This document shows, piece by piece, positions 20,509 to 34,913 of a stretch of DNA of 64,000 nucleotides. The first letter of the stretch is position 1. The number at the start of each line of letters is the position of its first letter. The notes beneath the pieces were generated by a model. It searched no databases. It was not told the DNA's origin and worked only from the letters and a program-made list of their open reading frames with translations. The position numbers and the translations under genes were made by a program. The stretch is from assembly GCA_020633055.1 (NCBI GenBank), contig JACKEJ010000004.1, positions 641,914 to 705,913 on the forward strand, read 5' to 3'. The stretch is from Sandaracinaceae bacterium (lineage in GTDB: Bacteria > Myxococcota_A > Polyangia > Polyangiales > Houyiibacteriaceae).

Positions 20509-21732
20509 TCATGGCTTCAGGGCGTCGAGCAACGCCTCCAGGTCGTTCCAAGGGAGCACCGTGACGTGGCTGCGGTCTTGGCGCACGGTACCCCCGTGCA
20601 CCAACCATGCGCTGAACGATGCATCCGACAGTGCTGCGCGCCAGTAGTCGAGCCCGGTGAAGAAGTCGGACGCAACGGTCTCGCCGGACTTGACCTCGAC
20701 GGCTTGGAGGCGACCCGGCGCCGTCTCGATCAACCCGTCCACCTCGTGCCCCGCCTTGTCCCGGAGGAAGTGCAGGTTGGGCGTCTGGCCCGTGTGCGCC
20801 TGCACCTTGCGGAGTTCGGTCATCACCCAGTTCTCGAAGAGTGCTCCGCGCTGGGGATGCGCGACGACATGACCCGGTTGACGAACCCCGAGCAACCAGG
20901 CAGCTAGGCCGGGATCGGTGAAGTACAGCTTCGGGGTCTTGATGAGCCGCTTGGTGGCGTTGTTGAACCAGGGGCGCACCAAGAACAGGAGATGGCTCGC
21001 TTGGAGGACGGACAGCCACGCGTCAGCCGTCACCCGCGTGATGCCAGCGTCGGCGGCCAGCGCGCTGACGTTGACCAACTGTCCGATGCGCCCGGCACAC
21101 AGCTGCACGAAGCGCTGGAAGGTCGCGAGGTCTTGGACATGGAGGACCTGGCGGACATCGCGCTCGAGGTAGGTGCTCACATAGTCCTGCAGCCACACGG
21201 ACGGCTCGACCGGGCGGTCGTACAACGGGGGAAACAACCCGCAGTACAGGAGCTCGTCGACCGTCGTCGGGGCCCGGCCGACCCGCTGCAGCTCTCCCAA
21301 CGAGAACGGCAGGAGCGTGAGCATGGACGCGCGCCCCGCCAAGCTCTGCGTGATGGAAGCCATGAGGTCGAACTGACTCGAGCCGGTCAGGACGAAGCGC
21401 CCCATGCGCCGGTCGGCGTCCACGACGCCCTGGAGGTACGAGAACAGGTCCGGCGCGCGCTGGACCTCGTCGATGATGGCACCGTCCCCCACCTGTCGTA
21501 GGAACGCACGAGGATCGGCCAACGCAAACGCGCGCGTGTCTGGGTCCTCCAGCGAGACGTACGGGAGGTTGGGTGCCAGCAGCCGCGCGAGGGTTGTCTT
21601 GCCCGACTGCCGAGGCCCCGTGATGGTGAGGACGGGGTAGCCAGCCAGCCGCTTGCGCGCGGTGTCCGTCAGGACACGAGGCACGGGGTCAGGGGGAAGG
21701 GCCGGTGAGGTCACTTGGGCGACCATGTCCAT
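20509..21732 (-). CDS. AAA+ superfamily ATPase with DUF4143 (ATP-binding protein of the 'AAA_14/DUF4143' family)
   Basis: Walker A GPRQSGKTT. Overall length and motif order (IIDEVQRAP Walker B/arginine region, C-terminal DUF4143-like) fit this widespread orphan ATPase family. Confidence 0.85.
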   Translation of the reverse strand: MDMVAQVTSPALPPDPVPRVLTDTARKRLAGYPVLTITGPRQSGKTTLARLLAPNLPYVSLEDPDTRAFALADPRAFLRQVGDGAIIDEVQRAPDLFSYLQGVVDADRRMGRFVLTGSSQFDLMASITQSLAGRASMLTLLPFSLGELQRVGRAPTTVDELLYCGLFPPLYDRPVEPSVWLQDYVSTYLERDVRQVLHVQDLATFQRFVQLCAGRIGQLVNVSALAADAGITRVTADAWLSVLQASHLLFLVRPWFNNATKRLIKTPKLYFTDPGLAAWLLGVRQPGHVVAHPQRGALFENWVMTELRKVQAHTGQTPNLHFLRDKAGHEVDGLIETAPGRLQAVEVKSGETVASDFFTGLDYWRAALSDASFSAWLVHGGTVRQDRSHVTVLPWNDLEALLDALKP

Positions 21733-21767: not shown

Positions 21768-24530
21768 TCACAGCTCGAGGAAGCGCTGCAACACCTGCGC
21801 GTCCTGCGCGTCGGTCGCCTCGCTCAACGGGACGACAGGCGCCGTCGTGCCCGGGCCCGCCTGGCGGTAGCGGATGCGGTCGGTGTCTGGGTCCACGCCG
21901 TAAGCCGTGAAGCGCCCCGTGGCCTCGTCCACGACGTAGGCGACCACGACGGGCGCGTTGGTGAGCGCGCCCAGCCGAACGGACGCACCGTCCTCGCGCA
22001 CGATGCGCAGGTGATCCCCTTGGGGCATGGCCACGAAGCGACCGTCCGCCCGCGGGTAGTAGCGCTCCGCCGTGCACGCGCCGAACGACACCTGGGCGAG
22101 GTCTTCGACGCGGAGGCGCTGCAGCTCGCCCTCACGGCAGCGGAACAGGAACCGTGCGTCGGACGTGAAGTCGCCGCTGCCCTCCGACTGGAAGTAGGGC
22201 GTCGCCGCGCCGGCCGCGTAGAGCGCCTGGGTCACGGAGGCGGAGTCCGCCCCGACGCGCAGCGTCAGGTGCAGCACGCTCCCGTGGAAGACGGCCCCGT
22301 CGATGGGGTGCTCCGCGCGCAGCGACCACACGGCGCGGGTGCGCAGGTCGACGACGCGCACCTCGTCCCCGAACACCACGATGGCGCGCTGCGGCTCGAA
22401 CACCGCGAACGGCTCGCGGCCCAGCTCGGGGTCCTGATCCACGCTCACCAGCTCGCGACCACGACCGTCGTACAGCGTCATGCGCCACCACGGGCGCGGC
22501 GGCGGCTCCGCAGCGTCGTCGCTGGGCCCCTCGGGCGGCTCGTCGGACTCGAGGGGCGTCCAGAAGACCGCGAGCGACGACCCGTCGGGGCTCCACTCGA
22601 GCCAGTCCACGCCGCGCCCTGCGCTCGTGAGGCGACTCACGCGTCGCCCGTTGCGCGTGTCGAAGTTGGTGACCGGCAGCCCCGGCCCGTGTACGGCGAG
22701 CCGGCTCCCGTCCGGCGAGAACGTGTACGAGGCCGGGCAGTCCGGGCAGGCCTCGCCCGAGCGCGCGCTCACGGGCACGCGCATGCGCCGGCGGCCTGTG
22801 GTCATGTCCCACACGGCGACGGTCTCGTCGTCCTCCTCGCCCAGCCCGACGCTCTCGTTCGCGCTGAGCTGATAGACCATGCCGCGCGCGTCGCGGACCG
22901 CCTGAGGCTCCTCCTGCGCCTCGGCTGCCGGAGCAGCGGCGTCCCCGACGAGCGCGCAGTCGCCCACGGCGCTGTGAACGCGCAGAGTGCGCCCCTCGCC
23001 ACGCAGCTCGGCGCCCGCCATGGCGCAGTCCACGCGGCGCACGCCGGAGGGGCGATAGAGCACACCCCGGTAGCGGTTGGTGACCAGCACGCCCTCACCC
23101 GGCACGAACAGCGCGCCCCACACGCTCTCGGGGCCTGGCCTGGTCACGCGCTCGGCGACCTGCTCGCCGCGGCGCAGGTCCACCAGGTGGATGGCTCCCT
23201 CGTCGACGTAGATCATGCGGTCCCCGGCGGGCGTCACGTACATCGGCTCGAACCCGTACTCGCGCGCCTGCACGAAGGGCGCGAGGGGATGCGGTCGCGG
23301 CTGCCCGTTCAGGTCGAAGGCGCTCAGCCTGCTCAGGCTGTAGACCAGCGTCTCGCCATCGGGTCCGCGTGTGCTCTCGAGGGGCCAGCCCGTCTCCACC
23401 GTGGCGACCACCGCACCGCTCGCAGGGTCCACGAAGTGGACCATCGCGACACGGGGGTCGGCCCGCTGCGTGTCCCAGACCAACAGGCGCTCGCCCGATC
23501 GCAGCCAGTGGGCGGTACGGGCCCTGGTACCCGGCAGGTCGACCGTGTGGCGCAGCGCTCCCGTGAGCGGGTCTCGCAGCTGGACGTCCCCCGCGTCCGT
23601 GAGCGTCATCAAGAGGCCGCCCGTGGGCCGAAAGGCGAGCCCTCGGAAGCCCATGCCAGCCGACGACGTACCCGACGCGGGTTGCTCGCCACCCGGGCCC
23701 GTGGGCGCCGAAGGCGAGGGCTGCGCGGGCACGAGCGTGTCGACGAGCTCGCCCGCGGCGTCGTACAGCCCGAGGCGTGGCGCCGAGGGGACGATGATGG
23801 TCGTACGCTGGGAGGCGTCGGGCTCCTCCCGCTGCACGCGCGCGGCGATGAAGCGGGCCATGCTCGGGCTCACCCACGCCTCCGTGGGTACCAGGAGCTG
23901 TCCGCGCTCGTTGCGCGGCACCAGCGCGCGCCGCACCTCGAGCGTCGCGGCGTCACGCACGGCGAGGCCCGGCGGCTCCAGCGACACCACCAGGGCCCCG
24001 TCCGGGCTCATGTGCGCCGCAGGGAGATAGTAGAGGTCCCCCGTCTCCCCGGGGACCAAGGTGTCCGTCAGCAGGTCCCACACGAACAGGCTGGTGGCAT
24101 AGGGCACGCCGTTCCCGTGCAGCAGCACGCGCGTGCCCGTGGGGTCGAAGTGGGGGGCTCGCAGCGCCCCGCTCTGCACCCACATGCGGCGGCTGGCGCG
24201 GACGTCCCCCGTCTCGAAGTCGAGCACGCTCACCTCGCCGCCGTAAGTGGCCACGAGCGCGAGGCGTCCGTCGGGCGAGATGTCCAGCGAGCGCACGCTG
24301 CCGCTGTGCCCGGCCTGGAACACGGGCCGACCCAGCGCTTCCGGGCCCGCCGCGCGCGCCGCGGGTGCGGGCAGTGACTCGTCGACGAGCAGTGTTCCCG
24401 GTGCCTCGACCTCCGGCTCGACGGGCGGCGTGGTGACCCCCGGTGTGGGCGTGCTGCAGCCGGGGGACGCGAGCGCCCCCAGCAGCACGAGCCAGAGAAC
24501 CGCGGGACCCACCATGGCGCGCTGTCGCAT
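21768..24530 (-). CDS. lipoprotein with WD40/TolB-like beta-propeller repeats
   Basis: Signal peptide and lipobox LASPGC. Repeated SPDG(R/S)LA(V/L) blades (LDISPDGRLALVAT, MSPDGALVVS, FSPDGSRLAVHG, WSPDGSSLAVF). The 890-aa opposite-strand ORF was rejected. Confidence 0.8.
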   Translation of the reverse strand: MRQRAMVGPAVLWLVLLGALASPGCSTPTPGVTTPPVEPEVEAPGTLLVDESLPAPAARAAGPEALGRPVFQAGHSGSVRSLDISPDGRLALVATYGGEVSVLDFETGDVRASRRMWVQSGALRAPHFDPTGTRVLLHGNGVPYATSLFVWDLLTDTLVPGETGDLYYLPAAHMSPDGALVVSLEPPGLAVRDAATLEVRRALVPRNERGQLLVPTEAWVSPSMARFIAARVQREEPDASQRTTIIVPSAPRLGLYDAAGELVDTLVPAQPSPSAPTGPGGEQPASGTSSAGMGFRGLAFRPTGGLLMTLTDAGDVQLRDPLTGALRHTVDLPGTRARTAHWLRSGERLLVWDTQRADPRVAMVHFVDPASGAVVATVETGWPLESTRGPDGETLVYSLSRLSAFDLNGQPRPHPLAPFVQAREYGFEPMYVTPAGDRMIYVDEGAIHLVDLRRGEQVAERVTRPGPESVWGALFVPGEGVLVTNRYRGVLYRPSGVRRVDCAMAGAELRGEGRTLRVHSAVGDCALVGDAAAPAAEAQEEPQAVRDARGMVYQLSANESVGLGEEDDETVAVWDMTTGRRRMRVPVSARSGEACPDCPASYTFSPDGSRLAVHGPGLPVTNFDTRNGRRVSRLTSAGRGVDWLEWSPDGSSLAVFWTPLESDEPPEGPSDDAAEPPPRPWWRMTLYDGRGRELVSVDQDPELGREPFAVFEPQRAIVVFGDEVRVVDLRTRAVWSLRAEHPIDGAVFHGSVLHLTLRVGADSASVTQALYAAGAATPYFQSEGSGDFTSDARFLFRCREGELQRLRVEDLAQVSFGACTAERYYPRADGRFVAMPQGDHLRIVREDGASVRLGALTNAPVVVAYVVDEATGRFTAYGVDPDTDRIRYRQAGPGTTAPVVPLSEATDAQDAQVLQRFLEL

Positions 24531-24667
24531 CGCCGCAGTGTGCGCTTCGCATCTCGCAGCGTCATGTGGGAACACGGCGGCGCCGCACTCGTGGGATTTC
24601 CCCGGAGCGCTTATTGACCCGCGTTCAACAACGATCTAACCTGGAGGTGAGTTGTCCAGGAGGTCTC

Positions 24668-25543
24668 ATGTCCGTCGCAGCCCGCCGCATCGCCCCTGCT
24701 CCGAGCCCCACGTCCCCCGTCGCGGACCGCGCCGAGCGTCCGCGTATCGTCATCCGCCGCGTCGACGTGGACACCGAGGAGCGCGGCGAGAAGTACTGGT
24801 ACAACGGCATGCCCGGCGTGACCGCCTTCGCGTACGCGCTCTCGGCCGTGTTCCCGGACGGGGAGCGCATGTTCATCGACTCGGTGCGGCACTACCGCGA
24901 CCAGATCAAGGACCCCGAGCTGCAGGCCGAGGTGCGCGCCTTCATCGGGCAGGAGGCGCAGCACGGGCAGGTGCACGAGCGCTACAACGCGCGGGCGGAC
25001 GCGGATGGCTTCGCGGTGAGCGCGGTCACGGCGCACGCCCAGCGGCGCATGGCGCGTGTGCGCAAGGTGGCGCCGCCCGAGGTGCAGCTGGCCATCACCT
25101 GCGCGCTCGAGCACTTCACGGCCATGATGGCGGAGCAGCTGCTGGGCAACGAGCTCATGAGCGAGGGCGTCCCGGAGTCGCACGCGACGATGTGGCGCTG
25201 GCACGCGGCGGAGGAGGCCGAGCACAAGGCCGTGGCCTTCGACGTGTACATGACGGTGGACGGCAGCTACGTGCGCCGCATCCGCACGTACCTGGTGGTG
25301 TCGTTCATGTTCTCCGCCACCACGCTCGCCACCACCTACTACCTCATGGCCAAAGACGGGACGTTCTTCAGCCTGAAGAACCACGCACAGCTGCTGCGCT
25401 TCCTGCTCGTCTCGCCGGGGCTGTCGCGCAAGGTGCTGCCCGGCTGGTTCGACTACCTGCGCCCGAACTTCCATCCGTGGGATCGGGACGACCGCCACCT
25501 GCTCGAGCGCTGGAAGCGCGAGTGGGCGCCCTCCTTCCGGTGA
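24668..25543 (+). CDS. predicted metal-dependent hydrolase (PF10118-like)
   Basis: 291 aa with conserved His/Glu clusters (QEAQHGQVHERYN, EHFTAMMAEQLL, WHAAEEAEHKAVAFDVY) typical of this membrane-associated hydrolase family. Confidence 0.75.
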   Translation: MSVAARRIAPAPSPTSPVADRAERPRIVIRRVDVDTEERGEKYWYNGMPGVTAFAYALSAVFPDGERMFIDSVRHYRDQIKDPELQAEVRAFIGQEAQHGQVHERYNARADADGFAVSAVTAHAQRRMARVRKVAPPEVQLAITCALEHFTAMMAEQLLGNELMSEGVPESHATMWRWHAAEEAEHKAVAFDVYMTVDGSYVRRIRTYLVVSFMFSATTLATTYYLMAKDGTFFSLKNHAQLLRFLLVSPGLSRKVLPGWFDYLRPNFHPWDRDDRHLLERWKREWAPSFR

Positions 25544-25893: not shown

Positions 25894-28800
25894 TCAGTCG
25901 TGAGGCCCCACGGCGCGCCCCAGGACGGCGTCGCGGATGGCGGCCAGCTCCAAGCCCAGCCCGCTCAGCGTACCCGTCAGGCGGGTGACCGGGTCCTCGT
26001 CCGCGCCGCCCATCGTCTTCTGGCGCCGGAATTCGCCCTTGATCTCCGCCCAGCGCTGCGCCTCCGCGGCGCTCAGCCTCCCGCGCAGCTCGGCCAGCTT
26101 GAGTAGGTTCTGCTCGGCGCCCGTGGTCAGCGTCTGGGCCTCGCCGCGGTAGTGATCGTCGACCAGCGTCTGCAGCTCGTCCGCGTTCATGGCCGCCACC
26201 ACCTTCTCCGCGATCTTGTTCATGTTGCGGTAGCTGCCCTGCAGCTTGAAGGGCGGCTCGGTGCGGTAGGCGTCCGCTTGGCTGGCCGAGCGCACGTACT
26301 CGGCGTTGACGCGCAGGAGCACGTCGCGCGCGGTGAAGAGGTGACGCAACACCGCGGTGATCGCGTTGAGCTCGGCCGCGCTGTAGGGGTGGCTGAGCTC
26401 GCTGCTGGGCACGGTCTCGCCGCGCGCCATGCGCACCAGCGCGCGCAGGTCCTTCGGGTCGCGCCCGGCCAGCGGCGCGAGCACCGCGTTCGAGGTGAGC
26501 GCGTTCTCGATGTAGCTGAGCGCGAAGGCCTCCTCGCGCCCGCTCAGCACGTCGCCCAGGTTGTAGGTGTCGGCGCGGTTCGCGAGCATGTCCGGGATCT
26601 GGAACTTCTCGCCGCTCTCCGTGTAGGGGTTGCCCGCCATCACCACGGCGAGCTTCTTGCCGCGCAGGTCGTACGTGCGCGTGCGCCCACGGAACACACC
26701 CTCGATGCGCCGCTGCCCGTCGCACAGCGAGATGAACTTCTGCAGCAGCTCGGGGTGCGTGTGCTGGATGTCGTCGAGGTAGAGCATCACGTTGTTGCCC
26801 ATCTCGAACGCCAGGTTGATCTTCTCCACCTCCTGGCGCGCCGTGGCGTTGGGGGCCTCGGCCGGGTCCAGCGACAGCACCTGGTGCCCCAGCGACGGCC
26901 CGTTGACCTTGACGAAGGCGAGACCCAGCCGGCTGGCCACGTACTCCATGAGCGTGGTCTTGCCGTAGCCCGGAGGAGAGACGAGCAGCAAGAGGCCCAT
27001 CAGGTCGGTGCGCTTGGTGGCCCCCGCCGCGCCCATCTGCTTCGCGAGGTTGTCGCCCACCATGGGCAGGTAGACCTCGTCGATCAGCCGGTTGCGCACG
27101 AAGGACGTCATCACGCGCGGCCGCAGCTCCTCGAGGCGCAGGCGCGCGGCCTCGGCGTTGATGAGCTCGTGGCGCAGGGCGCGCAGCGCGCGGAAGGCGG
27201 GCACCTGTTCGCGTTGGTAGCGGCGCAGGCGCGGCAGCAGCTCGTCCACGCGCAGGCCAAGGCGGCGGTCCACGATGCGCGGGTGCTGCCCCAGCAGGTC
27301 GGTCGCGTCGGCCTGCAGCAGCGCCGCCGAGGCCTCGTGGTTGATGACGCTCTCGCTCAGCCACAGCGCGGCCGCCTCGTGCAGCACGGGCTCGGGCGGG
27401 GGCGCGTCCAGCGTGCGCCCAAAGGCCGTGAGCCACGCCAGCGCGACGCCGTGTTGCGCTGGCAGCTGGTGGCTCAGCCCGCTCAGCTCCTCGTCCAGGT
27501 CGCGTCGCGTGCCGTCCAGGTCCAGGCGCTGCTGCAGACGTTCGCGCAGCTTGGCCGCCTCCGCGGAGACGATGAAGCGCGTCTGCGGGGCGCGCAGGAT
27601 CTCGGCCAGGTAGGCCCCCGCTTCGGCGGCGAGCCCAGGCGCCGCGAGCCGCGCCGCGGTCTTGGCGAGGCCCGAGGTGGCCAGCATCTCGGCGATGCGC
27701 TGCCCCAGCTCGTCGGCCAGCTCGGCGAAGGCGCGCCCCTCGCCAAAGCGCTCACGCAGCCGCCCGAGGCTGCGCGCGCGCCGCTGCCAGTCGTCGCCCT
27801 CGGCGGCGCCCACGCGGTGCCCCCAGAAGAGCATGGCCGCTGCGCGCGCCTCCCCCGCGAAGCGCAGCGGACCAGCGGACTCGAGTAGCGTGAGGAGTCG
27901 CTCGAGGATCGCGGCCGCGTCGGCGTCGTGCACGCCGCGCTCGTAGCCCTCGTCGTAGCGGTCGCGCGCGCGCGCCTGCACCAGCGCCAGCAGCCCGCCC
28001 GGCTCGCGCTGGGCCGCGTGCAGCGCCGCGAGCGTCAGCGCGCCCTCGCCGCCCGTGGGCTCGGCCCCCAGCGTGCTGGGCTCCTCGGCCTCGAACAGCA
28101 GCGTCGCGGCCAGGTACTCGCCGCGGTAGACCTCGGGGCTCTCGCTCACCAGGCTCTGCTCGAACAGCGGCCTTAGCGCCTCCAGCTGCGGGTGCTCGGC
28201 CTGCGTGAAGTAGTCCGTGCCCGCCACATGGAAGCTGAGGCCTCCCGCGCGCGGCACCAGGCTCAGCTCGAAGGGCTGGTCGTTGACGCTGAATTCGTGC
28301 CGTCCGAAGCGGATGAGGTCGCCCCCGCTACCGAACAGGTCCAGCTTGTCGCGCAGCCCGCGCAGCGCGTCCTGCCGCGCCGACTTGGTCTTGCTCTCCA
28401 CCTCGTCCGCGTGCACCGCGCCGCCCAGCGCGCGCAGCTTGTCGGCGATCTCGCGCAGCTTCAGCAGCATGGGGTCGGCCGCGAAGTAGGCCTCGAGCCC
28501 CTCGGTCTCGCCGAAGCTGGCCGCGCGCCGGCGCACGCCCGTCAGGATGCGCTCGGCGGCCCCCACCAGGTTCTGGACGCGGCGGTTGCGCTCATCCAGC
28601 AGGCGCTGCTTCTTGGCGTCGAACGCGCTCTGGATCTCCTCGCGCTTCTCGGCGATGTCGGACAGGAACTCGTCCAGCTCGCTGAAGCGCGCCTCGAGCT
28701 CCTCCACCTGCACCATCAGGCGCGTCAGCTCGGTGTCGCAGCCCTCTGGGGTCTCGGCCGCCGCCAGCGCGCTGGCCACCGACTGCGACAGCAGCTGGAA

Positions 28801-30930
28801 CTGCGCGGCGAACTCGGCCTTGCCCTCGGCCGCAGCCAGCGACTTGCGGCGCGCCTGGGCCACCGCACGCACGCGGTTCTGCTGCCCGAGCACGGCGCTG
28901 ATGGCCTCGAGGATGCGCGTGCGCACCGTGGCGTCGTCCACGCTCAGCCCGGCCACCACCTCGCTGATGACCGTGAGCCCCTCGCTGACCTCCACCAGCC
29001 GCGCGTCCAGCGGGACCATCTCCGTCACACGGGTGACGTCCGCCACCTGGGCCTCGATCTCGGTCAGCTCCTGGGCGATGGGGCGCAGCGCCTGGTCCCC
29101 GGTCAGGAAGTGCACGCAGGTCTCGCTGACCTGCTCGAAGGCCTGCTTGGCCTCCTCGCGCAAGCCCGCCACACGGCCCAGGTCCATGAAGCGCAGGTCC
29201 TCGAGGGCCACCAGGCGCCCTTGGTGACGCCGCAGCGACGAGAGGGTCTGCATGTACGCGGCCACGCTCCCCTGCTCGCTGCGCGCCGCATCGAGCAGGG
29301 CCACCTGCTGCCCGCGCGCTTCATCCAGAGCCGCCTTGGCGCGGTCGCGCAGCGCCAGCACCTTCTCGAACTCGCCGACGATGCTGTCGGCCGTGGCCCG
29401 CAGCTCGATCAGCGGGCGACGCAACGCCACCTCGGCCTCGTCCAGCCAGAAGTACGCGTCGAGCGCGCGGTCGACGGCGCGGATCAGGTCCTCGAACGTG
29501 TGCCGCTGCGGCTCGGCGGTCTCCGTCAGCCGCCCGATGGCGTAGGCGTCCGAGAGCCCGCGCACCAGCTCGGCGTTGCCGATGCGCGCCATGAGCGAGC
29601 CGTCCGTGGGCGCCGCCGCGGCGACCTCCGCGGAACAGAACGGCGTCCGCCACACCTGCATCGGGTGCACGCGCGACGGCTCCGCGCTCTCGGAGCGGAA
29701 GACGATCATCTCGCCGTCGTCGAAGATGCTGTAGCCGTGGCACTGGATGGGCGTCTGCATCTCCTTGCGGATGAGGTTGTAGGGCAAGAGCGCGTAGCGC
29801 CCGCTGACGCGCTCGTGGAACACGTAGAGCACGTCCTCGCCGTTTGGGGCCCGCACCGAGGTCTTCAGCTCCATCCCGGCGGGCTGCGCGTCGAAGACCT
29901 TGTAGTCCCCCGTCTGCAGGTAGTAGCCGCCCGGGAACACGATGCCGTGCCCCTCGGGCAGCTGACGGCACGCCTGCCCGATGGCGTCCAGGCGTACCAC
30001 CCGCTGCGCGCGCGGGTCGTACACCAGGTAGCGCGGCTTCTCCTCGCGGAACGGGTGGACGCGCAGCAGGATCAGGTCCCCCACCTTGGCGTAGCGGAAT
30101 TCACCGTCGTCCAGCGTCTGATTCACGTCGTCGACGGGCTCGCTGTAGATGCCCCGGCCGGTGCTCGTGTTGTTCTCGACCTTGATCGTCAGGTCCCCGC
30201 CCAGTGTCTCCACGAAGAGCGTGTCGAGGATGTTCAGGTGCGGGTGCGTGCCCGTGACCTGCGCGTCACGCCCCGCCAGCACCCACTTGAAGTCGTAGGG
30301 CTCGGGGAAGACGTGGTCGCGGTCGCCGCGGTTGTCCACGTAGCGCACCGACCCGTCGGGCTCGATGCTCCAGCGCAGCACCTTCACGTCGCGCGTGGTC
30401 GCGCCCGTCTGCACCACCGCCAGCAGCTTGCCGGCGGTGCGTCGCAGCTGGATCAGCTTGGCGTCGCGGTAGTAGCGAAACAGCTCGTTGAAGTCGGCGA
30501 CGAAGCGTGGGTCCTCGAGCAGCTGCGCGTCCTCGCCCCCGGCCGGCACGTGCCCGAGGTCGTAGTCCCCGTTCACGTGCTCGAAGCGGTGCAGCGAGAG
30601 CACGTGCTGCACGTCCACCTGCTCCTTGAGCTGGAACTCGACGGCGTAACCGAACAGCAAGCGCCCGCGCACCTGGACGATGTCGCGCGGCACGCACGCG
30701 TGCTCCGTGCGCACCCGCACCTGCCCGAGCACCTCGAGGGCCGAGCTGCCGAAGGTCTCGACGCGCCGTTGGTTCAGCCCGTCGAGGCGCTCCCGCAGCG
30801 CGACCCCCTGGGAGAGGAGCCGCCTGCGGATGACCTCGTAGTCCGCGCCGCTCTGCGCTTCGGCGTCCACGCCCCCATTCGGATCGGGGGCACCGGGCGC
30901 AGCGGACGCTGCCGTTCCGTCGTTGGCCAT
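25894..30930 (-). CDS. giant (1678 aa) coiled-coil protein with C-terminal MoxR-like AAA+ ATPase domain
   Basis: Single ORF whose start lies 8 bp after the flotillin stop. N-terminal ~450-aa globular region, ~600 aa of heptad-rich helix, then Walker A LLLVSPPGYGKTT (about 26955-26996), Walker B VMLYLDDIQ and an AVVMAGNPYTESGEKFQIPDMLANRADTYNL sensor segment resembling MoxR/RavA. Confidence 0.85.
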   Translation of the reverse strand: MANDGTAASAAPGAPDPNGGVDAEAQSGADYEVIRRRLLSQGVALRERLDGLNQRRVETFGSSALEVLGQVRVRTEHACVPRDIVQVRGRLLFGYAVEFQLKEQVDVQHVLSLHRFEHVNGDYDLGHVPAGGEDAQLLEDPRFVADFNELFRYYRDAKLIQLRRTAGKLLAVVQTGATTRDVKVLRWSIEPDGSVRYVDNRGDRDHVFPEPYDFKWVLAGRDAQVTGTHPHLNILDTLFVETLGGDLTIKVENNTSTGRGIYSEPVDDVNQTLDDGEFRYAKVGDLILLRVHPFREEKPRYLVYDPRAQRVVRLDAIGQACRQLPEGHGIVFPGGYYLQTGDYKVFDAQPAGMELKTSVRAPNGEDVLYVFHERVSGRYALLPYNLIRKEMQTPIQCHGYSIFDDGEMIVFRSESAEPSRVHPMQVWRTPFCSAEVAAAAPTDGSLMARIGNAELVRGLSDAYAIGRLTETAEPQRHTFEDLIRAVDRALDAYFWLDEAEVALRRPLIELRATADSIVGEFEKVLALRDRAKAALDEARGQQVALLDAARSEQGSVAAYMQTLSSLRRHQGRLVALEDLRFMDLGRVAGLREEAKQAFEQVSETCVHFLTGDQALRPIAQELTEIEAQVADVTRVTEMVPLDARLVEVSEGLTVISEVVAGLSVDDATVRTRILEAISAVLGQQNRVRAVAQARRKSLAAAEGKAEFAAQFQLLSQSVASALAAAETPEGCDTELTRLMVQVEELEARFSELDEFLSDIAEKREEIQSAFDAKKQRLLDERNRRVQNLVGAAERILTGVRRRAASFGETEGLEAYFAADPMLLKLREIADKLRALGGAVHADEVESKTKSARQDALRGLRDKLDLFGSGGDLIRFGRHEFSVNDQPFELSLVPRAGGLSFHVAGTDYFTQAEHPQLEALRPLFEQSLVSESPEVYRGEYLAATLLFEAEEPSTLGAEPTGGEGALTLAALHAAQREPGGLLALVQARARDRYDEGYERGVHDADAAAILERLLTLLESAGPLRFAGEARAAAMLFWGHRVGAAEGDDWQRRARSLGRLRERFGEGRAFAELADELGQRIAEMLATSGLAKTAARLAAPGLAAEAGAYLAEILRAPQTRFIVSAEAAKLRERLQQRLDLDGTRRDLDEELSGLSHQLPAQHGVALAWLTAFGRTLDAPPPEPVLHEAAALWLSESVINHEASAALLQADATDLLGQHPRIVDRRLGLRVDELLPRLRRYQREQVPAFRALRALRHELINAEAARLRLEELRPRVMTSFVRNRLIDEVYLPMVGDNLAKQMGAAGATKRTDLMGLLLLVSPPGYGKTTLMEYVASRLGLAFVKVNGPSLGHQVLSLDPAEAPNATARQEVEKINLAFEMGNNVMLYLDDIQHTHPELLQKFISLCDGQRRIEGVFRGRTRTYDLRGKKLAVVMAGNPYTESGEKFQIPDMLANRADTYNLGDVLSGREEAFALSYIENALTSNAVLAPLAGRDPKDLRALVRMARGETVPSSELSHPYSAAELNAITAVLRHLFTARDVLLRVNAEYVRSASQADAYRTEPPFKLQGSYRNMNKIAEKVVAAMNADELQTLVDDHYRGEAQTLTTGAEQNLLKLAELRGRLSAAEAQRWAEIKGEFRRQKTMGGADEDPVTRLTGTLSGLGLELAAIRDAVLGRAVGPHD

Positions 30931-30937
30931 GGTGGGC

Positions 30938-33067
30938 TCAGTCCAGGCCGAGCTTGCGGGCCTCGGCCAACAGCTGCTTCAGCTTGGCCGCCTTCTCGGT
31001 GTCACCCCCCTGCGCGAGCCGCGCCAGGAGCGCGGTCACGCCGAGGTTCTTGAGGTCCTCGCTGCCCACGCGGGGCGCGCTGAGCACGTCCTTCACGTCG
31101 GCCACCAGGCTCTTGTCGCCGTCGAGGTAGTCCTTCAGCAGCGTCTTGACCGAGCTCGACCCGTCCACGAACGCGTCCGCGCTCTGGCCCAGCGTCACGG
31201 CCTTGACGAAGCGGTCGAAGAACTCGCCGTCACCACCCACGATGTTGATCTTGGCCTGCGCCATGGCCTGCGCCAAGACCTCGGCCTGCGCCTGCGCGAC
31301 GTGTTGCCGCACGGCGATCTGCGCCAGCTCCACCTCGCGCTCCTTGTCGAGGCGCAGGCGGAACTCCTCGTGCTCGCGGCCTACGCCGTCGAGCGCCTTC
31401 ATCGCGGTGGCCTTCTCGGCCAAGCCGGCGGCCTCGGCCACCAGCTTCTTCTCGATGGCCTGCGCCTCGGCCAAGCCGAGCTTCTCCACAGCCACCGCGT
31501 CGGCCTCGCGCACGTGCACGCTGGCCAAGCCTTCCTTCTCGAGGGCCGCCGCCGCCGCTTCCTTCACGCGCGCCGCGGACAAGCCCTTCTGCTCTTCACC
31601 GGCGGCCTCGGCCTCGAGCCGCTGCCGGATGACGTGCGCCTGGGCCACGCCCTCCTTCTCGATCGCGGCGGCGTTGGCCTCGCGCACGCGCACCTCGGCC
31701 AGGCCCTGGGCGGCCACCGCGGCCTGCTCGCCTTCCGCCATGCGCATCTTGGCGCGGGCCTGCTTGTCGGCGGCCTCGAGCGCCGCCTCGGCGTTGACCA
31801 GCGTCTGGCGCGCCGTGTGCTTTGCGGCCACCTCGGCGGCCTCGGCGGCCTTGATCTGCGTCACGTACGACTCCTCGGCCTGCGCCTCGGCGTGGATGAC
31901 GGTGGCGTCCTTCACGCGCTTCGCCTCGGCGACCACGCGCAGGTCCTTGATGCGCTCCTCCTCCTCGGCGACGGTCTTGTCCACGGCCACGCGGCCGCGC
32001 ACCACCTCGGCGATCTCGCGCTTCTTCACCTCGAGCTCGCGGTCCTTCTCGATGCGACCGAGCTCCGTCTCGCGCTCGCGGCTGATGGCCTCGAGCACGC
32101 GCGCCTTCTCCACGCGCTCGGTCTCGACGCCGATCTCGCGCTCGCGGTTCTTCACGGCCACCTCGGCCGCGCGCAGCTTGGCCTCCTCGGCCACGGCGAT
32201 CTCCTCCTCGTGCTTCTTGCGGAGGACCATCGTCTCCTTCATCTCGGCGTCCTTCACGCGCTGCGCAGCGTTCTGCTCACGCGCCTGGGCGATGTCGATC
32301 TCCTTGTTCTTGCGCGCCTCGGCGTCGGCCCGCTGCTGCTCGAACTGGAACACGGCCTCGTCCGCCGTGAGGTCCTGGCGGCCCATCTCCATGCGCTCCT
32401 TCTGGCGCAGCTGGTTCGTGTGCACGTTCTGCACCGCGGTCATCTCCGTGATCTTCCGGATGCCCTGGGCGTCCAGGATGTTGTGCGGGTCGAGGTGCTC
32501 GAGCGGGGTCTGCTCGAGGAAGTCGATCGCGGCGTCCTCCAGCACGAAGCCGTTCAGGTCCTGCCCGATGACGTTCACGATCTGGTCGCGGAACTCCTCG
32601 CGCTTGTTGTAGAGGTCCTCGAAGTCGAGCCGCTTGCCGACCGTCTTGAGCGCCTCCGAGAACTTGGCGTTGAAGAGGTCCTCGATGGTCGCCTGGTCGG
32701 ACGCGCGCGAGCAGCCGATGGCCTGCGCGACCTTGAGCACGTCGTTGACGGTCTTGTTCACGCGCACGAAGAAGTTGACCTTGATGTCCGCGCGGATGTT
32801 GTCGCGGCAGATCAGGCCCTCCTTGCCGCGGCGGTCGATCTCGATCGTCTTGACGGAGATGTCCATCACCTCGGCGCGCGTGATCACGGGGATGATCAGC
32901 CCGCCAGTGAACGTGACCTTCGGCTCACCGCGCAGCCCGTTGATGATCAGCGCGCGACCCTGGTCGACCTTGCGGTACATCTTCGCGAACATGGCGCCCA
33001 GGGCGATGACCAGGACACTGCCCACCGCCACCACGCCGCCCACCACCAGCATCTTCTCGCTCATCAC
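30938..33067 (-). CDS. flotillin-like SPFH/band-7 protein (YqiK family)
   Basis: N-terminal TM helix, then an SPFH domain (KVTFTGGLIIPVITRAEVMDISVKTIEIDRRGKEGLICRDNIRADIKVNFFVRV) and a long EA-rich coiled-coil 'flotillin' region. 709 aa. Confidence 0.9.
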   Translation of the reverse strand: MMSEKMLVVGGVVAVGSVLVIALGAMFAKMYRKVDQGRALIINGLRGEPKVTFTGGLIIPVITRAEVMDISVKTIEIDRRGKEGLICRDNIRADIKVNFFVRVNKTVNDVLKVAQAIGCSRASDQATIEDLFNAKFSEALKTVGKRLDFEDLYNKREEFRDQIVNVIGQDLNGFVLEDAAIDFLEQTPLEHLDPHNILDAQGIRKITEMTAVQNVHTNQLRQKERMEMGRQDLTADEAVFQFEQQRADAEARKNKEIDIAQAREQNAAQRVKDAEMKETMVLRKKHEEEIAVAEEAKLRAAEVAVKNREREIGVETERVEKARVLEAISRERETELGRIEKDRELEVKKREIAEVVRGRVAVDKTVAEEEERIKDLRVVAEAKRVKDATVIHAEAQAEESYVTQIKAAEAAEVAAKHTARQTLVNAEAALEAADKQARAKMRMAEGEQAAVAAQGLAEVRVREANAAAIEKEGVAQAHVIRQRLEAEAAGEEQKGLSAARVKEAAAAALEKEGLASVHVREADAVAVEKLGLAEAQAIEKKLVAEAAGLAEKATAMKALDGVGREHEEFRLRLDKEREVELAQIAVRQHVAQAQAEVLAQAMAQAKINIVGGDGEFFDRFVKAVTLGQSADAFVDGSSSVKTLLKDYLDGDKSLVADVKDVLSAPRVGSEDLKNLGVTALLARLAQGGDTEKAAKLKQLLAEARKLGLD

Positions 33068-33162: not shown

Positions 33163-33918
33163 TCAGGAATCGGACGGGTGCCCGTCCGATTGTGGGAGCA
33201 CCGCGCGCAGGGGCTCGACGTCGTACACGTCCGCCTCGGCGTGGTACCCGATGATCAGCGCCGCGTCGCCGCGCTTGAGCGCGCCTTCGTCGTCGCAGCG
33301 CACCCGCACGAGCAGGCTGGTTCCGTCCTCGTCGATGATGGCCTGGCCGTCGCGCGCGTCCACGCGCCCCGTACGGATGGTGCACGTGGTGCCCACGTAG
33401 CTCTGCTTGCTGCGCCCCTGGTGCACCACGAACAGCGGCCCGAGTGGGCGCGTGAGCAGCGACGCCACGGGCAGCGCCAGCACGAACGCCAGCAGCGCCA
33501 CGAGCAGCGCACCGAGCCACGCGGGGACGGGCAGCAGGGGCAGCAGGACACGGGCGCCGACATAGGCACAGACCCACCCGGCCAGGAGCACCACCGTCAG
33601 GGTCACGGTCAGGGGCGCGTGCCGCAGGCGCAGCACGGTCAGGATGGCCGCCAGGCCCGAGGCGCTGCCCTCCCCTTCGCCGCCTGCGTCTCCCCCGTCG
33701 GCCGCATCGCCTGCATCGCCGACGTCCGCGCCGTCCGCCACGTCGCCCACGCCGTCGGCGCCGACGTCCACGTCCCAGTCGAGGTCGCCGTCCACGCCGA
33801 ACACGTCGATGTCCAGGGCGCCCAGGATGACCGTGAGCCAGTAGACGAGCACGATGCCGAGGCCCGTGGTGTAGATCACCGTCGGGAAGCTGAGCACCGT
33901 CTGCAGGAAGTCCTCCAT
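33163..33918 (-). CDS. NfeD/YqiJ-like membrane protein (OB-fold C-terminus)
   Basis: TM helices, an acidic D/G-rich linker, more TM helices and a C-terminal OB-fold segment (TTCTIRTGRVDARDGQAIIDEDGTSLLVRVRCDDEGALKRGDAALIIGY). The classic partner of flotillin genes (yqiJ-yqiK arrangement). Confidence 0.8.
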   Translation of the reverse strand: MEDFLQTVLSFPTVIYTTGLGIVLVYWLTVILGALDIDVFGVDGDLDWDVDVGADGVGDVADGADVGDAGDAADGGDAGGEGEGSASGLAAILTVLRLRHAPLTVTLTVVLLAGWVCAYVGARVLLPLLPVPAWLGALLVALLAFVLALPVASLLTRPLGPLFVVHQGRSKQSYVGTTCTIRTGRVDARDGQAIIDEDGTSLLVRVRCDDEGALKRGDAALIIGYHAEADVYDVEPLRAVLPQSDGHPSDS

Positions 33919-34055: not shown

Positions 34056-34913
34056 TTGTTCTGTGGGCCACGCCGATTTGGGCGGCCCGTGCACCGCGAA
34101 GGTCTTCGTTTGGTCATCGAGCGGCTCTTCGGATACGAGCGCGCCGCGCTGATCGGCTTGCCCGTGGAGCGGCTGGTGCCCGTCGAAGCGCGGCAGCAGC
34201 ACGTGCAGAAGCGCGAGCGATACGAGCGCGTGGGCCGGACGCGCTCCATGAGCGACCTCGACACCCTCGCCCCCGTCCGCCAGAACGGCGAGCTGGTGCC
34301 TGTGGAGATCAGCCTGAGCCCAGTGGACACGTCCATCGGCAAGCTGACCATCGCCATCGTGCGCGACGTGACCCGGCGACGGGCGTTGGAGGCCGACCTG
34401 CGCCACGCGAGCACGCACGACGGGCTGACGGGGCTGTTCAACCGGACCCACCTCGAGTCCGTCCGGTCGAGCCTCGAAGCGAGCGGCCAGATGGTCGGGG
34501 TCGTCCTGATGGACATCGACGGCCTCAAGGCCGTGAACGACACCTACGGGCACGAGGCGGGCGATCAGCTGATCAAGCGCGTGGCCGTGGTGCTGCGCGC
34601 CATGTCCGCGCCAGAGGACGTCCCCACACGTCTGGGAGGCGACGAGTTCGCGCTGCTGGTGCCGGGCACGGACGAGGCGGGTCTGGCCGCGAAGGTGGAG
34701 CTCTTGGGGGACGAGCTCGCGCGCCACAACGAGCTGCATCGCGGCCGGCCGCTCTCGTTCTCGCTCGGGGCCGCGTTGACGGAGCAGCGCGGCGGCATCG
34801 CGCTGGCCATGCGCGTGGCGGACCGCCGCATGTACGAAGACAAGCGCCAGCGGCGCAGGGCTCGCGGAGAGCCAGACGGGAGCGTGCCTCCTCCGTCTGC
34901 CACGCCCCGCTGA
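34056..34913 (+). CDS. GGDEF diguanylate cyclase with a partial N-terminal PAS-like segment
   Basis: DGLTGLFNRTHL...MDIDGLKAVNDTYGHEAGD...RLGGDEFALLVPG is an intact GGDEF. Only the second half of a PAS fold precedes it. Confidence 0.75.
   Translation: MFCGPRRFGRPVHREGLRLVIERLFGYERAALIGLPVERLVPVEARQQHVQKRERYERVGRTRSMSDLDTLAPVRQNGELVPVEISLSPVDTSIGKLTIAIVRDVTRRRALEADLRHASTHDGLTGLFNRTHLESVRSSLEASGQMVGVVLMDIDGLKAVNDTYGHEAGDQLIKRVAVVLRAMSAPEDVPTRLGGDEFALLVPGTDEAGLAAKVELLGDELARHNELHRGRPLSFSLGAALTEQRGGIALAMRVADRRMYEDKRQRRRARGEPDGSVPPPSATPR

What the first reader, a model, noticed from the sequence alone, without database searches (positions are those of the whole stretch)
25894..30930. 1678-aa protein with unusual domain order: globular N-domain, ~600-aa coiled coil, C-terminal MoxR-type AAA+
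MoxR/RavA ATPases are normally ~300-500 aa with the AAA+ module at the N-terminus and a nearby VWA partner. Here the AAA+ core sits at the extreme C-terminus after a very long helical region. The core comprises Walker A LLLVSPPGYGKTT, Walker B MLYLDDIQ and a sensor segment NPYTESGEKFQIPDMLANRADTYNL. No VWA gene is adjacent. The N-terminal 450 aa match nothing I recognise.
Basis: partly seen in the sequence, partly recalled or inferred. Interest (0 to 1): 0.7.

Follow-up and report, generated by a model that had tools for sequence, protein, structure and literature searches.

The report
Flotillin-operon giant AAA+ ATPase (DUF3686 family)
This is a real 1678-residue ATPase, but its domain order is the normal one for a widespread, already catalogued and untested bacterial family that is always encoded right after a flotillin membrane-scaffold gene, so it is an ordinary member of a poorly understood family rather than a new kind of protein.

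The parts
25894..30930 (-). Whole gene: 1678-aa DUF3686-DUF7902-AAA+ protein ('DNA repair ATPase' in NCBI naming). It is the third gene of the conserved operon. The ATG lies 7 nt after the flotillin stop codon.
29449..30798 (-). Residues 45-494, Pfam DUF3686. The AlphaFold model shows an N-terminal helix (22-60), about 28 beta-strands (66-428) and C-terminal helices (434-519).
28351..29448 (-). Residues 495-860: helical region with heptad-like periodicity. It contains Pfam DUF7902 (residues 613-697, nt 28840-29094).
   Evidence: Pfam E 4.3e-25. Crude heptad scan. Weak matches to SMC-like coiled-coil regions of LmuB, DndD and TrlF. Residues 520-850 were not modelled.
27091..28350 (-). Residues 861-1280: conserved middle region. 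A small five-strand sheet (872-911) is followed by packed helices and a second small sheet (about 1198-1227). Invariant residues include D861, G876, E930, G999, H1001 and D1004.
   Evidence: AlphaFold model pLDDT mostly above 90. Invariant columns. No PDB sequence match.
26551..27090 (-). Residues 1281-1460: AAA+ alpha/beta core. Walker A SPPGYGKTT (nt 26953-26979). Walker B MLYLDD (nt 26770-26787), which reads DD rather than DE. Pre-sensor-1 beta-hairpin RIEGVF/RTRTYD (nt 26668-26709). Sensor-1 N1434 to Arg-finger candidate R1452 (nt 26575-26631).
25897..26550 (-). Residues 1461-1678: extended helical lid carrying the invariant QGSYR motif (sensor-2 candidate R1568, nt 26227-26229), then C-terminal helices.
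30938..33067 (-). Flotillin-family gene of YqiK type: N-terminal membrane segment, SPFH/Band-7 domain and a long Ala/Glu-rich helical region. The probable ATG is at 33064. It lies directly upstream of the AAA+ gene.
   Evidence: Pfam Band_7 E 5e-9. BLASTP against E. coli YqiK E 3e-33. Present directly upstream in 77 of 80 related loci.
33163..33918 (-). YqiJ-like multi-pass membrane protein with a C-terminal beta-rich soluble domain. It is the first gene of the operon. The start at MEDFLQ... is inferred from the family consensus.
   Evidence: Translation. Family profile against E. coli YqiJ: hhalign probability 91.7%, E 7.7e-7. Present in 72 of 80 loci. No Pfam match.

Best explanation
The gene is an ordinary orthologue of the DUF3686-DUF7902-AAA+ family. 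It is the last gene of a conserved three-gene operon: yqiJ-like membrane protein, yqiK-type flotillin, then the giant AAA+ ATPase.

Shown here: family membership, the operon linkage, the propeller-like N-domain, a single C-terminal AAA+ module with a pre-sensor-1 hairpin, and an invariant nucleotide-site residue set.

Inferred: the protein has no membrane segment and so is cytoplasmic. It probably assembles through its AAA+ module. It may use its N-terminal propeller, carried on a long helical region, to dock onto the cytoplasmic face of the flotillin/YqiJ scaffold, and onto PspA polymers where those are co-encoded. ATP binding and hydrolysis would then assemble, disassemble or reshape those membrane scaffolds during envelope stress. 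There is no conserved aromatic pore loop, and the nearest folds are NorQ/CbbQ. This suggests it remodels a specific complex rather than threading whole polypeptides. The 'DNA repair' name is an inherited label with no supporting evidence.
For: Family: Pfam DUF3686 E 3.9e-191, DUF7902 E 4.3e-25, AAA and AAA_5. 5,987 homologues were scored and every listed one carries the same Pfam domains. 705 DUF3686 clusters at 50% identity, with full-length members about 1,600-1,900 aa.

Operon: the gap to the flotillin stop codon is 7 nt. Flotillin is directly upstream in 77 of 80 loci and the YqiJ-like gene in 72 of 80. These loci span Myxococcota, Actinomycetota, Gammaproteobacteria, Planctomycetota and Acidobacteriota. 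The flotillin ORF ends within 300 nt of the first aligned residue in 71 of 77 loci. No other neighbour is conserved.

Membrane-stress link: YjfI (DUF2170) and PspA/IM30 genes sit upstream in 17 proteobacterial loci. On plasmid pQBR103 a single same-strand cluster runs YjfI, PspA, rhomboid, DUF2491, DUF350, DUF1190, GspS-like, hypothetical, SPFH, 'DNA repair ATPase'.

Homology of partners: flotillin against E. coli YqiK E 3e-33. Membrane protein against YqiJ, hhalign probability 91.7%.

Active-site conservation: K1324, D1386, D1387, N1434, R1452 and R1568 are invariant.

Prior description: Ravi et al. 2024 proposed a role in assembling membrane-linked complexes and in membrane dynamics (PMC11237479).
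Against: There is no experimental evidence for any function of this family. Literature searches for DUF3686, PF12458 and 'flotillin + DNA repair ATPase' returned nothing.

Physical interaction with flotillin, YqiJ or PspA is inferred from gene order only. Oligomeric state was not tested. The invariant Asp at the catalytic Glu position of Walker B could mean slow hydrolysis, so the protein may act as a switch rather than a motor. The window has no pspA gene. One related locus (L078) has no flotillin upstream. Residues 520-850 were not modelled.
Confidence: 0.6

Rival explanations
1. It is a MoxR-type chaperone ATPase in the strict sense. It would mature or insert cofactors into a specific client with the help of a VWA-domain adaptor encoded elsewhere.
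Confidence: 0.1
2. It is a membrane-protein quality-control unfoldase working inside or beside the flotillin cage. This would be functionally analogous to FtsH held by HflK/C, but without a protease domain.
For: SPFH proteins form cages, and HflK/C partners with the AAA+ protease FtsH (background in PMC13086221, and general knowledge). S. aureus FloA-NfeD stabilises unfolded proteins (cited). The operon linkage to flotillin is strict. ClpA, ClpB and Lon are close structural neighbours.
Against: No conserved aromatic residue is present in the beta2-alpha2 (pore-loop-1) segment, which reads LGHxVxSLDP. There is no protease domain or protease neighbour. The protein has no membrane anchor.
Confidence: 0.15
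3. It is part of a conflict or anti-phage system. The propeller would sense an invader, and the ATPase would trigger a membrane response through flotillin and PspA.
For: The distribution across phyla and within genera is patchy. The gene occurs on megaplasmids including pQBR103, a few genes from a DNA methyltransferase. Large ATPases with sensor-like repeats are common in defence systems (general knowledge).
Against: PADLOC gives only noise-level matches, with E above 9e-4. No effector nuclease or toxin is conserved nearby. No copy is found in phages. Only 13 of 72,556 plasmid records carry it, most of them megaplasmids, chromids or chromosome-sized records. The conserved partners belong to envelope-stress families.
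Confidence: 0.12
4. It is a DNA repair ATPase, as the database name says.
For: Only the Pfam description ('ATPase involved in DNA repair') and the NCBI product names derived from it. There are weak P-loop-level matches to RuvB, and RuvB is the best Foldseek E-value.
Against: No DNA-binding or nuclease domain was detected. No repair gene is conserved nearby. The RuvB similarity covers about 35 residues around the P-loop in sequence searches. All conserved neighbours are membrane proteins.
Confidence: 0.03

Closest known systems
[quoted passage not shown] 2024 (PMC11237479)
   Same: All three Pfam domains occur in the same order. The match is full-length and collinear at 46-86% identity. The same YqiJ-like / flotillin / AAA+ operon is present. 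The window carries the 'abbreviated operon' without PspA that the paper mentions.
   Different: Nothing of substance. It is an orthologue from a Myxococcota metagenome-assembled genome. A partial NCBI entry, P0002, is 98% identical.
MoxR-family AAA+ ATPases NorQ and CbbQ (AAA_5 group, with dynein and midasin)
   Different: The protein is about five times larger, with the AAA+ module at the C-terminus. It has no VWA partner and no helix-2 beta-hairpin in the model. Walker B reads DD. Sequence similarity does not extend beyond the P-loop.
RuvB and the Clp/Lon (HCLR) AAA+ clade
   Same: They give the best Foldseek E-values and the only significant PDB sequence-profile hits apart from classic AAA proteins. 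The pre-sensor-1 hairpin is shared.
E. coli yqiJ-yqiK and B. subtilis yuaF-floT (membrane protein plus flotillin pairs)
   Same: The two upstream genes are homologues of YqiJ and YqiK and lie in the same order.
   Different: In E. coli K-12 no AAA+ gene follows yqiK; the sibD/ibsD locus follows instead. Here a giant AAA+ gene is appended with a 7-nt gap.
Vps4 with ESCRT-III, and FtsH with HflK/C (functional analogies only)
   Same: In each case an AAA+ ATPase is genetically or physically coupled to a polymeric membrane scaffold (PspA/ESCRT-III-like, or an SPFH cage).
   Different: The AAA+ clade differs: both are classic AAA proteins without a pre-sensor-1 hairpin. There is no MIT domain and no protease domain. 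No interaction has been shown.

Membership tests
DUF3686-DUF7902-AAA+ family ('DNA repair ATPase') | N-terminal DUF3686 domain (PF12458) | tested here: met
   E 3.9e-191; residues 45-494 cover profile positions 2-448 of 448
DUF3686-DUF7902-AAA+ family ('DNA repair ATPase') | Central DUF7902 (PF25472) | tested here: met
   E 4.3e-25; residues 613-697 cover profile positions 1-85 of 85
DUF3686-DUF7902-AAA+ family ('DNA repair ATPase') | C-terminal AAA+ module with the family's invariant motifs (PPGYGKT, LDDIQH, AGNPYT, PDMLxNR, QGSYR) | tested here: met
   All are invariant in 42 diverse members including the query
DUF3686-DUF7902-AAA+ family ('DNA repair ATPase') | Operon with a YqiK-type flotillin and a YqiJ/YuaF-type membrane protein (Ravi et al. 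2024) | tested here: met
   Window genes at 30938-33067 and 33163-33918. Present in 77 of 80 and 72 of 80 related loci.
MoxR AAA+ family | Match to the MoxR Pfam model (AAA_3) or a strong AAA_5 match | tested here: inconclusive
   AAA_3 is not among matches at E<=0.01. AAA_5 scores 25.9 bits against a cutoff of 22 (E 1.1e-5). PF00004 scores higher (32.1 bits) but covers only the first half of its profile.
MoxR AAA+ family | Helix-2 insert (beta-hairpin within helix 2) | tested here: not met
   DSSP of the confident model shows a short helix and a loop between beta2 (1338-1343) and alpha2 (1362-1377), with no hairpin. This rests on a predicted model.
MoxR AAA+ family | Pre-sensor-1 beta-hairpin | tested here: met
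   Strands 1408-1413 and 1416-1421 lie between alpha3 and beta4. The feature is shared with the RuvB, Clp, Lon and MCM clades.
MoxR AAA+ family | Pre-sensor-II insert that repositions the lid | not testable with these tools
A long helix (1518-1550) precedes the sensor-2 helix, which is compatible with the insert but not diagnostic.
MoxR AAA+ family | Neighbouring VWA-domain partner gene | tested here: not met
   No VWA domain in window neighbours. No further conserved neighbour in 80 loci.
MoxR AAA+ family | Closest solved structures are MoxR-family members | tested here: inconclusive
Classic AAA clade (Cdc48, Vps4, FtsH) | No pre-sensor-1 hairpin, and a second region of homology | tested here: not met
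Active AAA+ ATPase (not a pseudo-ATPase) | Walker A Lys, Walker B acidic pair, sensor-1, Arg finger and sensor-2 conserved | tested here: met
   K1324, D1386, D1387, N1434, R1452 and R1568 are invariant. The second acidic residue is Asp rather than Glu in every member, so the effect on catalysis is unknown.
Known anti-phage defence systems (PADLOC) | Significant match to a defence-system protein model | tested here: not met
   The best match is LmuB at E 9e-4, 16.5 bits, in the coiled-coil region. The flotillin has no match.
DNA repair proteins | A DNA-binding or nuclease domain, or conserved repair-gene context | tested here: not met
   No such Pfam or NCBIfam domain. RuvB models score far below their cutoffs (23 against 282 bits). 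No conserved repair neighbours.

The most novel reading that the evidence does not exclude
The family could be the dedicated ATP-driven remodeller of bacterial flotillin cages and PspA (ESCRT-III-like) polymers. That would make it a bacterial counterpart, by function, of Vps4 or NSF for membrane scaffolds. It would be built on a separate deep AAA+ lineage with an invariant Asp-for-Glu Walker B. It would use a propeller on a long helical arm to grip the scaffold.
Probability: 0.35. Interest if true: 0.7.

Novelty: new member of a known kind. Interest (0 to 1): 0.3.

Why it matters
The function of bacterial flotillins is still unclear. It is also not known how PspA-type polymers without a Vps4 partner are assembled and taken apart. 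A giant AAA+ ATPase that is genetically locked to a flotillin in at least 587 species is an obvious candidate for the missing energy-consuming component, and no paper found here reports any test of it. This particular gene adds little, because the family, its domain order and its operon are already catalogued. Its value is as one more well-behaved orthologue. It is also a reminder that the 'DNA repair ATPase' product name spreading through databases has no visible basis.

Tried and rejected
- Literature searches for 'DUF3686', 'PF12458' and 'flotillin + DNA repair ATPase' found no paper. 'YqiK + AAA' and 'bacterial flotillin + AAA+ + operon' found nothing on this protein.
- PADLOC gave only noise-level hits.
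- A PDB sequence search with residues 1-1229 found nothing. The flotillin and the YqiJ-like protein also found nothing. A profile of the YqiJ-like family against PDB found nothing significant.
- Pfam on the YqiJ-like protein found no NfeD or DUF1449 match, even at E<=5. Its identity rests on hhalign against E. coli YqiJ.
- The promoter and terminator scan gave counts no higher than shuffled sequence.
- A conserved link to the adjacent PAS-GGDEF gene was rejected: it is present in only 3 of 80 loci, at unrelated positions.
- A pspA gene was sought in the window and none was found.
- Phage carriage: none.
- A weak profile match of the helical region to the syntaxin-1A Habc domain (E 0.014) was judged not significant.
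- A fusion artefact of two genes was rejected.

Full report
**1. Observation**

The window is about 71% GC throughout. An ORF of 1678 codons lies at 25894-30930 on the minus strand. It has an ATG start and no internal stop. Its third-position GC is 0.96, as expected of a real gene in this genome.
- Walker A SPPGYGKTT, residues 1318-1326
- Walker B MLYLDD, residues 1382-1387
- NPYTESGEKFQIPDMLANR, residues 1434-1452

**2. What it is**

Pfam places three families on the protein in order:

| Pfam family | Residues | E-value |
|---|---|---|
| DUF3686 (PF12458, 'ATPase involved in DNA repair') | 45-494 | 3.9e-191, full profile length |
| DUF7902 | 613-697 | 4.3e-25 |
| AAA (PF00004) | 1314-1395 | 1.9e-7, first half of the profile only |
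| AAA_5 (PF07728) | 1314-1439 | 1.1e-5, whole core |

The N-terminal region is therefore not unrecognisable. It is the signature domain of a catalogued family.

- A search of 5.8 billion proteins returned 5,987 homologues among the 8,000 candidates scored. All listed hits cover 97-100% of the query and carry the same Pfam combination. NCBI mostly names them 'DNA repair ATPase'.
- The nearest entry is 98% identical: a partial protein from a Myxococcales metagenome-assembled genome.
- An exhaustive HMMER scan with the DUF3686 domain alone found 705 clusters at 50% identity. Their full-length members are 1,600-1,900 aa with the domain at the N-terminus.
- Conservation extends along the whole protein and peaks in the AAA+ module.

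The 'unusual domain order' is thus the family norm, and a gene-fusion artefact is excluded.

**3. Genomic context**

- The flotillin-like gene at 30938-33067 (Band_7, E 5e-9) ends 7 nt before the ATG of the AAA+ gene.
- Upstream of it, at 33163-33918, lies a multi-pass membrane protein with a beta-rich C-terminal domain.
- The flotillin is homologous to E. coli YqiK (BLASTP E 3e-33).
- A profile of the membrane protein's family matches E. coli YqiJ (hhalign probability 91.7%, E 7.7e-7). No Pfam model matched it.

The 80 loci kept span Myxococcota, Actinomycetota, Gammaproteobacteria, Planctomycetota and Acidobacteriota. In those loci:
- The flotillin lies directly upstream on the same strand in 77.
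- The YqiJ-like gene lies upstream in 72. Two of the three loci without a flotillin (L032, L037) have almost no upstream sequence.
- The flotillin ORF ends within 300 nt of the first aligned residue in 71 of 77.
- All-against-all clustering of ORFs found no other widely conserved neighbour. There is no VWA gene and no repair gene.
- In 17 proteobacterial loci, a YjfI (DUF2170) and PspA/IM30 pair precedes the three genes.

On the P. fluorescens megaplasmid pQBR103 the annotated same-strand cluster runs: YjfI, PspA, rhomboid, DUF2491, DUF350, DUF1190, glutathionylspermidine-synthase-like, hypothetical, SPFH, 'DNA repair ATPase'. The window itself has no pspA.

**4. Prior knowledge**

Ravi et al. 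2024 (mSystems; PMC11237479) describe this arrangement. CesT/Tir(YjfI)-PspA operons combine three genes:
[quoted passage not shown] - a 3TM protein prototyped by YqiJ and YuaF.

They also note 'related abbreviated operons' without PspA that are more widely distributed. The window carries such an abbreviated operon. No paper found here tests the function.

**5. Anatomy from structure prediction**

*Residues 850-1678.* The model has pLDDT 89.4 and pTM 0.81. It shows, in order:
- a small sheet (872-911);
- packed helices and a second small sheet up to about residue 1280;
- one AAA+ module.

Within that module:

| Element | Residues |
|---|---|
| beta1 | 1312-1315 |
| beta2 | 1338-1343 |
| alpha2 | 1362-1377 |
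| beta3 (Walker B) | 1381-1386 |
| beta-hairpin, the pre-sensor-1 hairpin | 1408-1413 and 1416-1421 |
| beta4 | 1427-1432 |
| helix ending in R1452 | 1447-1452 |
| beta5 | 1453-1456 |
| long lid, with R1568 opening a helix | 1457 onward |

No hairpin interrupts helix 2.

A crude heptad scan supports coiled-coil-like sequence only for about residues 480-860. The '600-aa coiled coil' is therefore overstated. Residues 520-850 were not modelled.

**6. AAA+ clade**

| Method | Result |
|---|---|
| Foldseek vs PDB, by E-value | RuvB first (2e-5), then ClpA, ClpB, MCM, ClpX |
| Foldseek vs PDB, by target-normalised TM-score | NorQ and CbbQ 0.50-0.53; RuvB 0.34-0.40 |
| Sequence and profile vs PDB | Only about 35 residues around the P-loop match, to NVL, Rix7, p97 and RuvB; no MoxR-family entry in the 60 best listed |

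The module belongs with the AAA+ clades that have a pre-sensor-1 hairpin. It is structurally nearest to the NorQ/CbbQ/dynein group. It is not demonstrably a MoxR member.

**7. Catalytic residues**

In 42 diverse members the following are invariant: K1324, D1386, D1387, Q1389, H1390, N1434, P1435, R1452 and the QGSYR motif ending at R1568. The protein is therefore not a degenerate pseudo-ATPase.

The Walker B catalytic position is Asp in every member rather than the usual Glu. From memory, the same is seen in DnaA-type switch ATPases. The segment between beta2 and alpha2 has no conserved aromatic residue, which argues against a polypeptide-threading pore.

**8. Explanation**

- Shown: family membership, a strict operon link to a YqiK-type flotillin and a YqiJ-like protein, a recurrent link to PspA/YjfI, and a single conserved AAA+ module.
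- Inferred: a cytoplasmic oligomeric ATPase whose propeller docks on the flotillin/YqiJ (and PspA) scaffold and uses ATP to assemble, disassemble or reshape it during envelope stress.
- Rivals considered and judged less likely: strict MoxR chaperone, quality-control unfoldase, defence system, and DNA repair.
- PADLOC shows no real match. Phage genomes carry no copy. Only 13 of 72,556 plasmid records carry one, most of them megaplasmids, chromids or chromosome-sized records.

**9. Verdict**

The feature is real and correctly located, but it is an ordinary orthologue of a known family that has been described computationally and, as far as the searches here show, never tested. Its interest lies in the family's unknown function, not in this instance.

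Noticed in passing
window 26770-26787 (residues 1382-1387): Walker B reads hhhhDD (MLYLDD, followed by invariant IQH) in all 42 diverse family members. Asp replaces the usual catalytic Glu. This could mean slow, switch-like ATP turnover.
   Followed up: partly
P0033 and P0042 (Sorangium homologues, 1890 aa): Two homologues carry an extra N-terminal PilZ domain (PF07238) in the precomputed Pfam list. This hints at c-di-GMP control in some lineages.
   Followed up: no
window 34056-34913 (+): A PAS-GGDEF diguanylate cyclase gene is transcribed divergently from the operon, and its start overlaps the longest reading of the YqiJ-like ORF. The adjacency is not conserved: it occurs in 3 of 80 loci, at other positions.
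   Followed up: yes
L082 and L083 (pQBR103, NC_009444.1, 84437-97641): The 425-kb P. fluorescens plasmid pQBR103 carries a ten-gene same-strand cluster that joins the whole yjfI-pspA-yjfKLMC-like set and a rhomboid protease to the flotillin and the AAA+ gene. A phospholipase D gene lies about 8.6 kb downstream.
   Followed up: partly
L078 7962-13751 (+): A Labilithrix MAG homologue (ORF of 1929 aa) has no flotillin or YqiJ-like gene upstream. It may be a paralogue or a rearranged locus.
   Followed up: no
L074 (Lampropedia hyalina) and L008: In these loci the flotillin lies 3.4 kb (L074) and 6.4 kb (L008) upstream of the AAA+ gene instead of adjacent to it, so extra genes are inserted. Ravi et al. 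mention a phospholipase D in some Proteobacteria.
   Followed up: no
window 20509-21732 (-) and 21768-24575 (-): Downstream, beyond a convergent metal-dependent hydrolase gene (24443-25543, +), lie an AAA_14 + DUF4143 ATPase gene and a 935-aa WD40-repeat protein gene. Neither is conserved next to the operon in other genomes.
   Followed up: partly
family profile positions 565-677 (helical region around DUF7902): There is a weak profile match to the syntaxin-1A Habc helical domain (E 0.014-0.024). It is probably compositional.
   Followed up: no
L081 (E. coli K-12, 3192208-3194525): E. coli K-12 has the yqiJ-yqiK pair but no AAA+ gene after it. The sibD/ibsD toxin-antitoxin locus follows instead. 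The AAA+ gene is therefore an optional third component of the pair.
   Followed up: partly
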